Part shown: positions 30,547 to 35,000 of the stretch, one piece after another
Layout of the letters: the number at the start of each line of letters is the position of its first letter
How positions within the stretch are numbered: the first letter of the stretch is position 1
IMG/VR virus record: IMGVR_UViG_3300025789_000018
DNA: 64,000 nucleotides
Direction: 5' to 3' (one strand)
Source: a virus
Taxonomy: Duplodnaviria > Caudoviricetes
Made by a program: the position numbers and the translations under genes
The notes under the pieces: model-generated
The model's input: the letters and a program-made list of their open reading frames with translations, nothing else
Told to the model about the DNA's origin: nothing
Database searches by the model: none

Positions 30547-31458
30547 TCAATCTTCTTCTTCAGCGATTCGCTTAAAGAACGATAGATCTTCATCATCCTC
30601 ATCAGTGTTCCAAAGAGTTGCATCCTCTTCAGCTTCATGAGCTGCAGGCTTTGCGCGAGCAGCAGGAGCAGAAGCAACTGGACCAGCGTCAGTATTACCA
30701 CGCGAGTCAATACCAAGAACTTGATGGAGACGACGCTTCAGTTCGTCATAGCTCTTGAATGTCGAAGGATCAATGATTTCCTGCAATGAGTACTCAGACT
30801 TCCAGATCTTTTCAAGTTCCGAGTCCTTGTCAAGAAGAGGAGCGATATCATCAAACTCCGACTTATCGTAGTTACGATAACCGTCGACCTTACGGATCTT
30901 GAGCTTGAAGTTAGCGCCTTCCCAGAGATCAAAAGGATTCATAGGAGTTTCATCTTCGAACTGAGGATGCATAGCTGCATTCAGCTTTTCGAAAATCTTC
31001 TTACCGTACTTGAACAGGAAAACCTTACCGTCGTTTTCGGGATTAGCTGGATCTTTAACAACATAGATGTTAGAGATATAACCTAGACGGCGCTTCTGGT
31101 CGCGAGCTTGCTTACGTTCAGGCGACTTATCGTCGTCCGAAGCGTTCCAAAGCTGGCTGTTGAATTCAGCGCAAGGATCTTTCTGATTGATAGTTGTCAG
31201 AGACTTTTCGATGTACCAACCATTGGGTCCCTTGAAACCATGATCCCAAAGACGGACGAAAGGTACAGTTTCATCGCCAGGCGAAGGAAGGAAACGGATA
31301 ATGGCATAACCATTACCAGCCTTATCTACGGTTGGCGACCAATATCGATTATCTTCTGCGTTGTTTTCAGTCTTGTTTGCGAGCTTATTGATCTCGGCGG
31401 TCAGACTTTCAAGCGATGCGAGACCGCTCTTCTTCTTAAGGTTTGCAAATGTTGACAT
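30547..31458 (-). CDS. gp32: Single-stranded DNA-binding protein gp32
   Basis: DKAGNGYA.IRFLP, HGFKGP.GWYIE.SLTT, GKVFL.K.GKKIF.K, GANFKLKI, acidic tail. Confidence 0.97.
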   Translation of the reverse strand: MSTFANLKKKSGLASLESLTAEINKLANKTENNAEDNRYWSPTVDKAGNGYAIIRFLPSPGDETVPFVRLWDHGFKGPNGWYIEKSLTTINQKDPCAEFNSQLWNASDDDKSPERKQARDQKRRLGYISNIYVVKDPANPENDGKVFLFKYGKKIFEKLNAAMHPQFEDETPMNPFDLWEGANFKLKIRKVDGYRNYDKSEFDDIAPLLDKDSELEKIWKSEYSLQEIIDPSTFKSYDELKRRLHQVLGIDSRGNTDAGPVASAPAARAKPAAHEAEEDATLWNTDEDDEDLSFFKRIAEEED

Positions 31459-32355: not shown

Positions 32356-32904
32356 TTATCCTTTGTTTACATAAAAATAGTGTTGTCCAATTTGGGCAAT
32401 TCTAACATAGCCCAATAGATGCCAGTGCGGGTGAATATAGTTAGCATGATAGAATTGAGCGCCGCGTGTAATGTCAGCACAGATACCGTGATATACTTGA
32501 TATGCAACAGTTTTACTGTCCTGATATGTAGTACTCGCATACATGATAGGTCTATTTCTCATACAAACCCAAGAGAACTGACAAACTCTACCACGCTTCT
32601 GTCTTACGACTTTACATGGAGTATTACCAAATCTCTTATCGCCAACTCGATTCATAACAACCTGAGTTACGGCAATTTTACCCTTAATAGACTGATTTCC
32701 TGCTTCATAATAAGCATTTTGTGCAAGACAATCAATCTGTTGTTTATCGTAGTTAGATTCATTAACGACTGGCTTTCCGAAAACTTCAGCTTTTGGTGTA
32801 TTTGCTCGAGCTGTTTCTGAAAAACTCATTATTACAACACTCAAACAAACCAGTGCAATTATAACAATATGACCAAAAGACTTAATTTTATCGAATAGTA
32901 ACAT
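32356..32904 (-). CDS. SleB-like cell wall hydrolase with N-terminal hydrophobic segment (probable start 32904)
   Basis: CLA.N.YYEA.NQ...G..AV..V.MNRV, CQFSW.C, GA.FYHA.Y..P.W, IG.H.FY. Confidence 0.9.
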   Translation of the reverse strand: MLLFDKIKSFGHIVIIALVCLSVVIMSFSETARANTPKAEVFGKPVVNESNYDKQQIDCLAQNAYYEAGNQSIKGKIAVTQVVMNRVGDKRFGNTPCKVVRQKRGRVCQFSWVCMRNRPIMYASTTYQDSKTVAYQVYHGICADITRGAQFYHANYIHPHWHLLGYVRIAQIGQHYFYVNKG

Positions 32905-33138
32905 TCGTTCCTCTTTTAAATTAACGATTCTGGCGATTGCATGTGTCCTTATAGAGCGTCTCATCTCGTGACAGTGATACAATGCTAAAAGAAGATACAA
33001 ATAATGGATACTCTCGGGTATCTTCTAGTCCATCTCCCTCTTACTGGAGTTGCAAAATCATTATGCTTTTATGGCGGTAATCCGCTGCTTTCTTCTGAAA
33101 GCTATGTAAGAGCTCATGGAGGCCATGCCTCCGATTAT

Positions 33139-33146: not shown

Positions 33147-33194
33147 AAGTCTTAGAAATTATTTTATCGGTTGGACTTATTTTTGTAACGTTTG

Positions 33195-33302
33195 AACTTA
33201 GAAGAACACTGACTGATACCTGCACTTCTCACCGTGTGCTTTTCGAGTCGCGATCCCTAGATATCCGCGTGGCGTTATTCGTTGTCAGTGTTCATCAAAG
33301 TT
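33195..33302 (-). ncRNA. Unidentified structured RNA B (about 108 nt)
   Basis: Terminal helix AACTTtGAtGAACACTGAC / GTCAGTGTTCtTCtAAGTT enclosing two hairpins; no credible ORF; downstream of late promoter 33472-33479. Confidence 0.6.
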
Positions 33303-33303
33303 T

Positions 33304-33465
33304 GCTGGGTACTATCGCTCCGTTTAAGGGCAATCGCTATACGTAGCCCCCCTAGAATAAACCTTTCATCGGTTGCGCCGAACATCCCACATAGTGGCGG
33401 TTATCAGCTAGGGTGATGATCTTCCTCGATAGTTAGGATCTTGCGCTCTTCTGCTCGGACCCAAC
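33304..33465 (-). ncRNA. Unidentified structured RNA C (about 162 nt, multibranch)
   Basis: Nested stems GTTGGGT/ACCCAGC, ACTATCG/CGATAGT, CCCTAG/CTAGGG, GCC/GGC, ACC/GGT, GGGC/GCCC; starts just after TATAAATA (33479-33472). Confidence 0.65.
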
Positions 33466-33480
33466 AAAACTTATTTATAA

Positions 33481-33589
33481 ACTTAGAAGAACCTACGATA
33501 TGGAGCACCCTCTCCATGGCAGCCACCAACGTCTTCGTCAAGACTTATTTCGGTGGTAGAACCCGTCGGCAAAGTAGGTTCATCTAAGT
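33481..33589 (-). ncRNA. Unidentified structured RNA A (about 109 nt)
   Basis: 16-bp terminal helix ACTTAGAtGAACCTAC / GTAGGTTCtTCTAAGT enclosing CCACC..GTCTT-GACG-AAGAC..GGTGG and ATGGAG..CTCCAT hairpins. Confidence 0.6.
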
Positions 33590-33625
33590 GGTGGTTATTC
33601 TGTTGCAAGGTCAACCACCAAACCC
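33590..33625 (-). other. Displaced probable ancestral 3' end of the tmRNA coding piece
   Basis: GGGTTTGGTGGTTGACCTTGCAACAGAATAACCACC resembles the alphaproteobacterial tmRNA 3' hairpin (…GTACCTGGCAACAGAAAC…, recalled, not aligned). Confidence 0.55.
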
Positions 33626-33698: not shown

Positions 33699-34469
33699 AT
33701 GACTATTTATACAGGATACGTATATCTTTGGTACGACACCAGAGCAAAATTCTTTTATCTTGGTGGCCACAAAGGTAAAGTAGAAGATTCTTATATCTGC
33801 TCTAACAAAATGATGCTGAGAGCATACAAGAAACGTCCAGAAACATTCAAATTTCGTGTGCTTGAATATGTTTACGGCGACAACAAAGCTTTGCGTGAAG
33901 CAGAACAACGTTGGCTAAACATGATCAAAGACGAAGAACTTTATTGGACACCAAACATTTACAACAAAACTGTTAGATATTACAACCAGAAGAAACATTC
34001 TGCTGGAGGTAATGGCACTGCCAATAAAGGCAAAAGTAGACCAAGTTGGAGCAAAGGATATACAAAAGATGAAATAAATCTAAGAAGAGACGGTCTGTTG
34101 TCTTTCTTTCCTTTAGATATTCCTAAGAAACTTCCAAAAAGGCGTCAACTAGACAAAAGTAAAACAAAAATAAAAGAAGCAAAACCAAAGTTTTGTAAAG
34201 TGTATTCGCATATATGCGAAAAGTGTGCTAAAAACTTCTATCATAAAAAAGATGATATTAGATTTTGCTCTCTATCATGCCGCGCAAGTAATGCAGCATC
34301 TTTAGTAAAGGTAAATGGCATGAAGAAAGAACAAACTAGAAAAAGTTTTTCTAATCTAACCACTGGAAGAAAAATGTCCACGAGAGAAGACGGCACAAGA
34401 TATTGGACATATCCAGATAATGAGGGTGTTTATTTCACAGAGTACACCCACAAACTCCGAACTACTTAG
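33699..34469 (+). CDS. GIY-YIG (Seg-like) homing endonuclease, inverted, inside the tmRNA locus
   Basis: GYVYLW...FFYLGGHKG...Y..S, E..WL, YYN; C-terminal Cys-rich segment. Confidence 0.85.
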   Translation: MTIYTGYVYLWYDTRAKFFYLGGHKGKVEDSYICSNKMMLRAYKKRPETFKFRVLEYVYGDNKALREAEQRWLNMIKDEELYWTPNIYNKTVRYYNQKKHSAGGNGTANKGKSRPSWSKGYTKDEINLRRDGLLSFFPLDIPKKLPKRRQLDKSKTKIKEAKPKFCKVYSHICEKCAKNFYHKKDDIRFCSLSCRASNAASLVKVNGMKKEQTRKSFSNLTTGRKMSTREDGTRYWTYPDNEGVYFTEYTHKLRTT

Positions 34470-34755
34470 ATCAGGCAGACATTCTCACGGCTGCAAAATC
34501 GTTGTCGTTATGTGCAACTAGGTTGACATTTACAGTTTTAGCCACTCGGCCAGCGAATCAGTCTAGACTTTCCTATCCAATGCAAATCGATCCCAGGTCA
34601 TCCCCATCAACTACACTGTGCTATATAAGGATAGCGTTAGTCCTAAGTCTTTAGACAATACTATCTAGCAGATACTAAATGCACAGTATAGATGGTGGAG
34701 ATGGGGAGAATCGAACTCCCGTCTTTACATCTTTCAGTCCGCTTTCAAACAACTG
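34424..34755 (-). ncRNA. ssrA: Two-piece (circularly permuted, alphaproteobacterial-type) tmRNA
   Basis: Acceptor piece ends GGGAG-TTCGATT-CTCCC-CATCTCC-ACCA (3' A at 34693). An 87-nt intervening segment follows. The coding piece starts GGGGATG at 34605, giving a 7-bp acceptor stem with G3:U70. Helix 2 TTTGCAT/ATGTAAA. Tag frame 34515-34471 reads AHNDNDFAAVRMSA*. Confidence 0.9.
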
Positions 34756-34761
34756 ATAACT

Positions 34762-34792
34762 TATTTATACGCGAAACGCATATAAATGTCAA
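34762..34792 (-). promoter_or_regulatory. Dual sigma70/late promoter for tmRNA
   Basis: TTGACA-N17-TATAAA, where the -10 box is also a T4 late TATAAATA. Confidence 0.75.
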
Positions 34793-34796
34793 GAGA

Positions 34797-35000
34797 TTAT
34801 TTTACCTTTTTGTTGACTTTGGCCTTTGGTGCAGGCGTTAGAGCAGCTTCTAGACGCTCTTCCAGATCCTTGATGTCTGCTTCAGCAGTGGCAAGCTTTT
34901 CCTTCAGTCGGGCACTTTCGATAGTATCTGCGCTTACAACCGTACCAGCCACAAATGCTACGAACAGCAATGCAATGAAAATTCCGTATACAATAAACAT
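34797..35000 (-). CDS. Small membrane-anchored coiled-coil protein
   Basis: N-terminal hydrophobic helix; GGAGA RBS. Confidence 0.6.
   Translation of the reverse strand: MFIVYGIFIALLFVAFVAGTVVSADTIESARLKEKLATAEADIKDLEERLEAALTPAPKAKVNKKVK

What the first reader, a model, noticed from the sequence alone, without database searches (positions are those of the whole stretch)
33304..33479. Unidentified 162-nt multibranch RNA with its own late promoter
Seen: starts just after TATAAATA and closes with GTTGGGT/ACCCAGC stacked on ACTATCG/CGATAGT. Further nested stems are CCCTAG/CTAGGG, GCC/GGC, ACC/GGT and GGGC/GCCC. A possible pseudoknot pairs ATCCTA with TGGGAT. It is GC-rich for this genome and has no ORF. 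I could not match it to RNase P, SRP, 6S, riboswitches or small ribozymes. Established: T4 carries stable RNAs of unknown function (RNA C and D) in its tRNA cluster. Inference: a functional phage ncRNA clustered with tmRNA.
Basis: partly seen in the sequence, partly recalled or inferred. Interest (0 to 1): 0.7.

Follow-up and report, generated by a model that had tools for sequence, protein, structure and literature searches.

The report
New phage small RNA beside tmRNA
The stretch encodes a real, conserved, folded non-coding RNA of about 165 bases that a few uncultured lake T4-like phages keep next to their tRNA and tmRNA genes; it matches no catalogued RNA family and its job is unknown.

Summary
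The finding holds, but only relatives could show it. On the minus strand, a TATAAATA box (33479-33472) is followed by a 162-nt, ORF-free stretch with 51% G+C in a window of 39%.

The fold is no more stable than shuffles (z -0.4), and near-identical copies carry no information. Searching upstream of a neighbouring gene found diverged homologues. The family now has 6 distinct sequences on 16 contigs.

- **Structure:** 42 pairs in 8 helices, 94% paired (35-50% when partners are slid), 14 pairs changed on both sides.
the two closing helices, CCCTAG/CTAGGG and ACC/GGT are conserved. GCC/GGC and GGGC/GCCC are not. The pseudoknot holds in one clade only.
- **Conserved loops:** a 25-nt internal loop and a UAAACG bulge are nearly invariant.
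- **Context:** in three lineages the RNA ends 1-5 nt before tRNA-Ser(UGA), which is followed by tmRNA. An A/T box sits 5-6 nt upstream in four of five lineages.
- **Distribution:** no Rfam match, and absent from 93 related phage records, cultured phages and sampled bacteria.

Best reading: a late stable RNA matured with tRNA/tmRNA, like T4 RNAC/RNAD. Its 5' end resembles Y RNAs, but no Ro60 gene was found. Other readers of this scan noted the same stretch; it was not seen on other DNA.

The parts
33472..33479 (-). T4-type late promoter box TATAAATA. The 12-mer TATAAATAAGTT is shared with the tmRNA promoter at 34769.
   Evidence: Box variants CATAAATA and CTAAATA sit at the same 5-6 nt distance in L323, L283 and L319.
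33304..33465 (-). Predicted mature RNA, 162 nt. The covariance models span 33300-33468.
   Evidence: 149-225 bits. Homologues: L152, L260, L283, L318-321, L323.
33459..33466 (-). P1, 5' strand (UGUUGGGU). GGUCCGA spans its end and the start of the internal loop.
   Evidence: 97.8% of cells paired. U-G changes to C-G in relatives.
33303..33310 (-). P1, 3' strand (ACCCAGCA), followed by an invariant AA.
33434..33458 (-). J1/2: a 25-nt, nearly invariant internal loop (CCGAG..GAAGA.CGCAAGAYCCUA) holding a 2-bp mini-hairpin.
33427..33433 (-). P2, 5' strand (ACUAUCG).
   Evidence: 100% paired. U-A changes to C-G, and G-C to A-U or G-U.
33311..33317 (-). P2, 3' strand (CGAUAGU), stacked on P1.
33419..33426 (-). 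P2b/P2c, 5' strands (AGGA, GAU).
   Evidence: Two pairs changed on both sides; 86% paired.
33327..33334 (-). P2c/P2b, 3' strands (AUU, CCCU).
33321..33326 (-). Invariant bulge UAAACG.
33408..33415 (-). P3, 5' strand (CACCCUAG).
   Evidence: 97.6% paired. Two pairs compensated in L260.
33349..33355 (-). P3, 3' strand (CUAGGGG).
33360..33402 (-). P3c (AACC 33402-33399 with GGUU 33363-33360). It encloses hairpins P3a (33397-33387) and P3b (33380-33370, loop CGCAA).
   Evidence: P3c, P3a and P3b have 3, 3 and 2 pairs changed on both sides.
33336..33347 (-). P4, a variable local hairpin (GCUA CGUA UAGC).
   Evidence: Length and sequence differ between lineages.
33193..33305 (-). SegB2: a flanking element closed by a 19-bp stem and ending GTTCTTCTAAGTT. 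It is a candidate 3' processing site and a mosaic junction.
   Evidence: z -2.3; identity to G001 stops at 33195.
33478..33592 (-). SegA: a flanking four-way-junction element closed by a 15-bp stem, ending with the same 13-mer.
   Evidence: z -4.6. Conserved in L142 and L152.

Best explanation
This is the gene of a small stable non-coding RNA of about 162-168 nt. It belongs to a previously uncatalogued family in uncultured freshwater T4-like phages.

Shown:
- The family has a conserved architecture of eight helices. Two stacked closing helices (P1, P2) bring the 5' and 3' ends together. They are separated on the 5' side by a nearly invariant 25-nt internal loop.
- A second rod (P2b, P2c) carries an invariant UAAACG bulge.
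- A distal domain (P3, P3c) ends in two hairpins.
- G-U pairs fix the minus strand as the RNA strand.
- The gene always lies in the tRNA/tmRNA neighbourhood.

Inferred:
- It is transcribed late from its own T4-type late promoter, so the transcript begins at the first base pair of P1.
- In the lineages where tRNA-Ser(UGA) starts 1-5 nt after P1, RNase P cleavage at the tRNA 5' end sets the RNA's 3' end. This is the way stable RNAs of the T4 tRNA cluster are matured.
- In this window the tRNA is replaced by a long-stem element (SegB2). That element would serve as the 3' processing or stabilising site.

More weakly inferred:
- The RNA acts in trans as a protein-binding scaffold or decoy through its invariant unpaired nucleotides, not by base-pairing.
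For: Homology and structure:
- Homologues at 74-103 bits with the single-sequence model.
- 6 distinct sequences on 16 contigs.
- 94.4% of 250 cells paired, against 35-50% when partners are slid.
- 14 pairs changed on both sides, against 0-3 when slid and 7.2 +/- 1.7 in shuffles (0 of 500).
- Covariation score 0.344 against 0.168.

Invariant loops.

Strand: G-U pairs at several positions.

Synteny:
- RNA, then tRNA-Ser, then tmRNA in L283/L322, L318-321 and L323.
- tmRNA, then RNA, in the window, L152 and L260.

Promoter:
- TATAAATA enriched.
- The same TATAAATAAGTT precedes the tmRNA.
- A/T box at a fixed distance in four of five lineages.

Other:
- No ORF.
- G+C 51% against 39%.
- Precedent: T4 RNAC and RNAD lie next to tRNA genes and segB, are late, and have no known role (PMC3014915, PMC9697503).
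Against: - No expression data. A discrete transcript, its ends and its timing are all inferred.
- The fold is not thermodynamically distinctive (z -0.38).
- There are only 6 distinct sequences in about three clades, and the alignment was fitted to the model. Some 'double changes' are therefore single inherited events.
- L260 has no recognisable late box.
- The family is narrow. It is missing from 93 other related phage records, including three complete ones, so it is dispensable for this phage group.
- In this window there is no tRNA after the RNA, so the 3' end mechanism here is a guess.
- No partner protein was identified.
Confidence: 0.6

Rival explanations
1. It is a cis-acting 5' leader, not a free RNA. 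A structured cap at the very start of a late transcript would protect or guide maturation of whatever follows: the tRNA-Ser and tmRNA precursor, or the mRNA of the DUF7695-like gene X or the cell-wall hydrolase.
For: - P1 starts at the predicted +1. A paired 5' end is a known way to block 5'-end-dependent decay (own knowledge).
- In G001, L024, L030 and L260 the RNA lies upstream of gene X, with no other TATAAATA in between.
- No intrinsic terminator follows it.
Against: - The downstream partner differs in every lineage: tRNA-Ser, the gene X leader, or SegB2 plus a hydrolase that has its own late promoter.
- Eight helices and about 35 invariant unpaired bases are far more than a protective hairpin needs.
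- Gene X occurs in 50 records that lack the RNA.
Confidence: 0.18
2. It is a Y-RNA-like molecule. The terminal stem plus the GGUCCGA motif at the stem/loop junction would bind a Ro60/Rsr-type ring protein of the host, tying it up or redirecting it (for example with PNPase) during late infection.
For: - GGUCCGA is the motif contacted by Xenopus Ro60, and it is read mainly on the 5' strand (PMC4201824).
- It is exact in 5 of 6 family members, at positions 8-14 where P1 meets the internal loop.
- The first 12 nt differ from those I recall for human Y3 and Y5 by one extra G (own knowledge of those sequences, not checked here).
- L318 and L283 also fit the bacterial motif GNCGAA(N)G.
- Phage Y-like RNAs exist (PMC4201824, PMC12135203).
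Against: - No TROVE/Ro60 gene in five records carrying the RNA (all fragments) nor among the 10 scanned of the window's 15 ORFs of 330 aa or more nor in the 500-aa ORF scanned earlier. Published YrlA genes lie within 4 kb of Ro60.
- No Rfam Y_RNA or YrlA match at E<=10.
- No tRNA-like T/D module.
- The 3' partner of the motif is taken by covarying P2.
- One family member has GGCCCGA.
- A 7-mer noticed after the fact has a chance probability of about 1% per RNA.
Confidence: 0.12
3. It is passenger DNA: a non-functional or selfish cassette carried along in a recombination-prone region. It looks conserved only because the block was exchanged recently.
For: - The block is 98.6% identical in L152, whose coding DNA is only 66-73% identical to the window.
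- Identity to G001 stops exactly at the end of SegB2.
- GTTCTTCTAAGTT marks three mosaic junctions.
- A 238-nt element is present or absent next to it.
- A homing endonuclease gene lies 220 nt upstream.
Against: - Diverged homologues in three other lineages and two other genomic layouts keep the helices through compensatory changes.
- They also keep about 35 unpaired bases invariant. Drift would not do that.
Confidence: 0.05

Closest known systems
T4 RNAC and RNAD (species 1 and 2 stable RNAs; rnaC, rnaD)
   Same: - Small stable RNAs of a T4-type phage.
- They lie in the tRNA gene cluster next to a GIY-YIG homing endonuclease gene.
- They are classed as late, and their function is unknown (PMC3014915, PMC9697503).
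- They directly adjoin a tRNA gene, so RNase P can make an end.
   Different: - No sequence or model similarity: R1 finds nothing in the T4 tRNA region.
- RNAC carries a tRNA-like T arm, which this RNA lacks.
- T4's RNAs follow the tRNAs, whereas this RNA precedes tRNA-Ser in three lineages.
- This RNA has its own late box.
Y RNAs, bacterial YrlA and phage Yrl RNAs with Ro60/Rsr
   Same: - The 5' and 3' ends pair in a terminal stem next to a large internal loop.
- The exact GGUCCGA motif sits on the 5' strand at the stem/loop junction.
- Phage-encoded examples exist (PMC4201824, PMC12135203).
   Different: - No Ro60 gene nearby.
- No tRNA-like module.
- No Rfam match.
- Longer than the 80-130 nt of typical Y RNAs.
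- The loop and distal domain are unrelated.
Structured RNA motifs of T4-like cyanophages and marine metagenomes
   Same: Conserved, G+C-enriched structured RNAs found by comparative analysis in uncultured T4-like phages.
   Different: - Those motifs are leaders tied to particular downstream genes.
- This RNA keeps no fixed downstream gene, and it sits among RNA genes.
PeSL promoter/stem-loop cassettes of T4-type phages (PMC2839356, PMC4122927)
   Same: The flanking SegA and SegB2 elements, like PeSLs, are repeated stem-loop modules that coincide with points of modular exchange.
   Different: - PeSLs carry early promoters and simple hairpins and flank ORFs.
- Here the repeats are roughly 110-nt branched elements with a shared terminal helix, next to a late promoter and an RNA gene.
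- I took the PeSL description from the titles and abstracts only.

Membership tests
Any Rfam 15 family | Covariance-model match at or near the gathering score | tested here: not met
   No match over 33300-33470 at E<=10. None over the homologues in L329, L330 and L331 at E<=5.
T4 RNAC/RNAD | Sequence or structure homology | tested here: not met
   R1 gives no hit in T4 68500-73500 at E<=10. The folds differ.
T4 RNAC/RNAD | Location inside the phage tRNA gene cluster, abutting a tRNA | tested here: met
   1-5 nt before tRNA-Ser(UGA) in L283/L322, L318-321 and L323. In the window it is next to tmRNA, with no tRNA.
T4 RNAC/RNAD | Late, discrete stable transcript | not testable with these tools
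   Only promoter motifs are available.
Y RNA / YrlA | Terminal 5'-3' stem beside a large internal loop | tested here: met
   P1 plus the 25-nt J1/2 loop.
Y RNA / YrlA | Ro60-contact motif near the 5' end (GGUCCGA, or bacterial GNCGAAN0-1G) | tested here: inconclusive
   GGUCCGA is exact in 5 of 6 members, and the sixth has GGCCCGA. The bacterial motif occurs only in L318 and L283 (motifs from PMC4201824).
Y RNA / YrlA | Ro60/TROVE gene within about 4 kb on the same strand | tested here: not met
   No PF05731 in G001, G002, G499, G502 or G503 (the control genomes gave hits). The seven neighbouring ORFs scanned (HEG-like, hydrolase, gp33, gp59, gp32 and two others) have no TROVE domain, nor do 10 of the window's 15 ORFs of 330 aa or more.
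Y RNA / YrlA | tRNA-like T and D arms (YrlA) | tested here: not met
   No tRNA or tmRNA call by ARAGORN or Rfam over the RNA. The hairpin loops are CGCAA and a variable loop.
Riboswitch or other cis-regulatory leader | Fixed position upstream of one class of gene | tested here: not met
   Three different downstream neighbours. Gene X is found without the RNA in 50 records.

The most novel reading that the evidence does not exclude
The RNA is a Ro60-less Y-RNA analogue. It would be a phage late RNA that presents the GGUCCGA stem/loop junction to capture the host's Rsr/Ro60 (or another RNA-surveillance ring protein) and its exonuclease partner. This would shield the phage's own tRNA, tmRNA and late transcripts, or disarm an RNA-based defence, without the phage encoding Ro60 itself.
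Probability: 0.12. Interest if true: 0.75.

Novelty: new variant of a known kind. Interest (0 to 1): 0.58.

Why it matters
Fifty years after T4's RNAC and RNAD were found, no trans-acting small RNA of a T4-type phage has a known function (PMC3014915). This family is a second, unrelated example of a late stable RNA kept inside the phage's tRNA/tmRNA cluster.

It also offers more to work with:
- a covariation-supported fold;
- a long invariant internal loop that looks like a binding site;
- natural variants with and without the RNA.

That makes it testable: pull down the partner, delete the RNA, and compare burst size and tRNA/tmRNA processing. If the Y-RNA-like 5' end is meaningful, it would show a phage exploiting host RNA surveillance without bringing its own Ro60.

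It also adds to the picture of phage 'RNA islands' next to tRNA genes, which this scan has noted in other genomes.

Tried and rejected
1. **Thermodynamic support.** z -0.38 for the RNA, -0.50 with SegB2 and +0.07 on the other strand. No signal, so energy is not used as evidence.

2. **Exact-pattern scans from the window's own sequence**. These found only near-identical contigs, plus L152 with three substitutions and none compensatory. Two hits (L026, L029) were chance matches inside coding DNA.

3. **Synteny through the cell-wall hydrolase** and through the tmRNA terminal hairpin. No homologue by nhmmer or blastn. In 26 tmRNA-bearing relatives, ORFs follow the tmRNA directly.

4. **Host origin.** No match by BLAST in 400 genomes, or with model R2 in 151 genomes, of the class that holds Herminiimonas. 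This is a sample, not proof of absence.

5. **Cultured phages.** blastn finds only the tmRNA T arm or the tRNA-Ser part.

6. **Coding remnant.** All six frames are broken, and there is no start codon with a ribosome-binding site.

7. **RNase P RNA, SRP RNA, guanidine riboswitch, 11-nt tetraloop receptor.** These were short resemblances recalled from memory. No Rfam support, and the required partner strands are absent or not conserved.

8. **Antisense pairing of the invariant loop with the phage's own tmRNA.** Better than shuffles in the window only (z about -2.6), and not in three other phages.

9. **SegB2 as a decayed tRNA-Ser.** No T loop and no similarity on inspection.

Not conserved.

Full report
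**What is at the coordinates**

The window is a T4-like phage. On the minus strand it encodes gp32 (30547-31458), gp59, the late-transcription coactivator gp33 and a SleB-type cell-wall hydrolase (32356-32907). A permuted tmRNA lies at about 34435-34806, also on the minus strand.

The finding lies on the minus strand in a 790-nt stretch without genes. TATAAATA is at 33479-33472. The quoted helices follow: GTTGGGT (33465-33459) with ACCCAGC (33310-33304), and ACTATCG (33433-33427) with CGATAGT (33317-33311).

- G+C is 51% against 39% for the window.
- No frame is open.
- Rfam gives nothing, even at E<=10.
- TATAAATA occurs 15 times against 5.2 expected.
- The 12-mer TATAAATAAGTT precedes both this RNA and the tmRNA.

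**Chance**

Energy gives no support. The z-score is -0.38 on the minus strand and +0.07 on the plus strand, and the ensemble is diffuse.

Long-range 10-bp helices are common in shuffles. The terminal helix is unlikely only when its ends are fixed independently by the predicted start site and the next element (p about 0.001).

The neighbours fold much better than shuffles:
- SegA (33592-33478): z -4.6.
- SegB2 (33305-33193): z -2.3.
- A 238-nt insert present in relatives: z -5.2.

**Finding relatives**

Exact patterns from the window found only near-identical contigs, plus L152. L152's coding DNA is 66-73% identical to the window, yet its copy of the RNA differs at three bases, none compensatory.

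The nearest record, G001, is 95-99% identical for 12 kb upstream. It loses similarity exactly at the end of SegB2 (33195). Beyond that point it carries a DUF7695-like gene ("gene X"), gp33, and a gp32 that is 71% identical.

Searching for relatives of gene X and scanning their flanks with a single-sequence covariance model gave two diverged homologues: L260 (103 bits) and L283 (74 bits). A two-anchor pattern built from what they share added L318-L321 and L323.

The family now has six distinct sequences on 16 contigs. It was not found in:
- 93 other related phage records, three of them complete;
- cultured phages;
- 400 and 151 sampled bacterial genomes;
- Rfam.

**Structure**

RNAalifold and pair counts, a manual check of one helix and a realignment to the final model give 42 pairs in eight helices.

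- 94.4% of cells are paired, against 35-50% when 3' partners are slid by 1-3 columns.
- 14 pairs are changed on both sides, against 0-3 when slid and 7.2 +/- 1.7 in shuffles (0 of 500).
- The covariation score is 0.344 against 0.168.

Helix by helix:

| Helix | Window sequence | Variation in relatives |
|---|---|---|
| P1 | UGUUGGGU / ACCCAGCA | Nearly invariant; U-G becomes C-G |
| P2 | ACUAUCG / CGAUAGU | U-A to C-G; G-C to A-U or G-U |
| P2b, P2c | AGGA / CCCU, GAU / AUU | Two double changes |
| P3 | CCCUAG / CUAGGG | Two compensations in L260 |
| P3c | AACC / GGUU | GACC/GGUC, GAGC/GUUC, GUGC/GCAC |
| P3a | CCAC / GUGG | CUAU/AUAG, CCUGU/ACAGG, CCGC/GCGG |
| P3b | CGG / CCG, loop CGCAA | Two double changes |
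| Mini-hairpin | 2 bp inside the internal loop | One double change; 83% of cells paired |

G-U pairs fix the minus strand as the RNA strand.

GCC/GGC and GGGC/GCCC are not conserved. The pseudoknot holds in the window, L152 and L260 but falls to 3 of 6 pairs in the other clade, and it competes with P3a.

About 35 unpaired bases are invariant. They include the 25-nt loop CCGAG..GAAGA.CGCAAGAYCCUA between P1 and P2, and a UAAACG bulge.

Caveats: there are six sequences in roughly three clades, and the alignment was fitted to the model.

**Context**

- In L283/L322, L318-321 and L323 the RNA ends 1-5 nt before tRNA-Ser(UGA), which is followed by the tmRNA.
- In L260 it lies downstream of the tmRNA and a small ORF, directly before the gene X leader.
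- In the window, G001 and L152 it lies downstream of the tmRNA, between SegA and SegB2.
- A late-type box sits 5-6 nt before P1 in four of five lineages: TATAAATA, CATAAATA or CTAAATA. L260 has none.

This is the layout of T4's tRNA cluster, where segB, tRNA-Arg, RNAD and RNAC are adjacent. Those RNAs are late and have no known function.

**How it most likely works**

- Shown: a conserved fold and a place among RNA genes.
- Inferred: late transcription starting at the first pair of P1.
- Inferred: release of a roughly 165-nt RNA by RNase P where a tRNA follows, and by processing at the long SegB2 stem in this window.
- More weakly inferred: action in trans through the invariant loop as a protein-binding site.

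**Y RNA lead**

One lead is the motif GGUCCGA at the P1/loop junction. It is exact in five of six members. This is the motif contacted by Ro60 on Y RNAs. Y RNAs share the terminal stem and large loop, and phage examples exist.

Against this reading:
- No TROVE gene was found in five records or in the 17 window ORFs scanned, 11 of them among the 15 of 330 aa or more.
- There is no tRNA-like module.
- There is no Rfam Y_RNA or YrlA match.

I put this reading at about 12%.

**Rivals**

- A cis-acting leader or 5' stabiliser (18%). This is weakened by three different downstream partners and by gene X occurring without the RNA.
- Passenger DNA in a recombination hot spot (5%). This is contradicted by the compensatory changes.

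**Verdict**

This is a new, narrow RNA family of a known general kind: late stable RNAs in phage tRNA/tmRNA clusters. The function is open.

Noticed in passing
window 33478-33592 (-): SegA is a roughly 110-nt four-way junction closed by a 15-bp stem (z -4.6), directly after the relic tmRNA terminal hairpin. It is conserved in L142 and L152, where three of four substitutions turn a pair into G-U. It may be a further RNA gene or a processing site.
   Followed up: partly
window 33193-33305 (-): SegB2 has the same terminal helix and the same closing 13-mer (GTTCTTCTAAGTT) as SegA, but a different interior. In G001 its stem is a perfect 13 bp.
   Followed up: partly
window 33195 and 33480; L142:5575; L017:1260: The 13-mer GTTCTTCTAAGTT marks three independent mosaic junctions: the end of similarity to G001, the point where L142 switches to unrelated DNA, and the insertion point of a 238-nt element. 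This resembles the recombination-prone PeSL modules of T4-type phages.
   Followed up: partly
L017:1262-1499 (G001); L152:11415-11656: A 238-nt, strongly structured element (z -5.2) is inserted exactly between SegA and the TATAAATA box in G001-type contigs and L152. It is absent from the window, L024 and L030. It has imperfect terminal inverted repeats of about 28 bp, a possible TA duplication, and no Rfam match.
   Followed up: partly
window 33590-33625 (-) and 33699-34469 (+): The hairpin at 33625-33590 is homologous to the 3'-terminal hairpin of the tmRNA in relatives (L006, L007, L152), with compensatory changes. Here a 256-aa ORF on the other strand separates it from the tmRNA body.
   Followed up: partly
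L017:1786-1918; L260:2309-2500: The leader of the DUF7695-like gene X is conserved between G001 and L260 and contains hairpins. That copy lies about 157 kb from the one here and in the same orientation. The assembly may therefore wrap around a genome of about 157 kb and join two strain variants.
   Followed up: partly
window 33434-33458 (-) with 34380-34402 (-): The invariant loop of the RNA can pair with the 3' end region of this phage's tmRNA locus (-24.9 kcal/mol, about 2.6 sd better than shuffles). The equivalent pairing is absent in three other phages.
   Followed up: yes
L329, L331 versus window, L330: Phages carrying this RNA have permuted tmRNAs that score as alpha-type in some lineages and beta-type in others. 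The tag peptides also differ, for example ANDNGVMEYALAA against AHNDNDFAAVRMSA. The RNA is therefore not tied to one tmRNA type.
   Followed up: no
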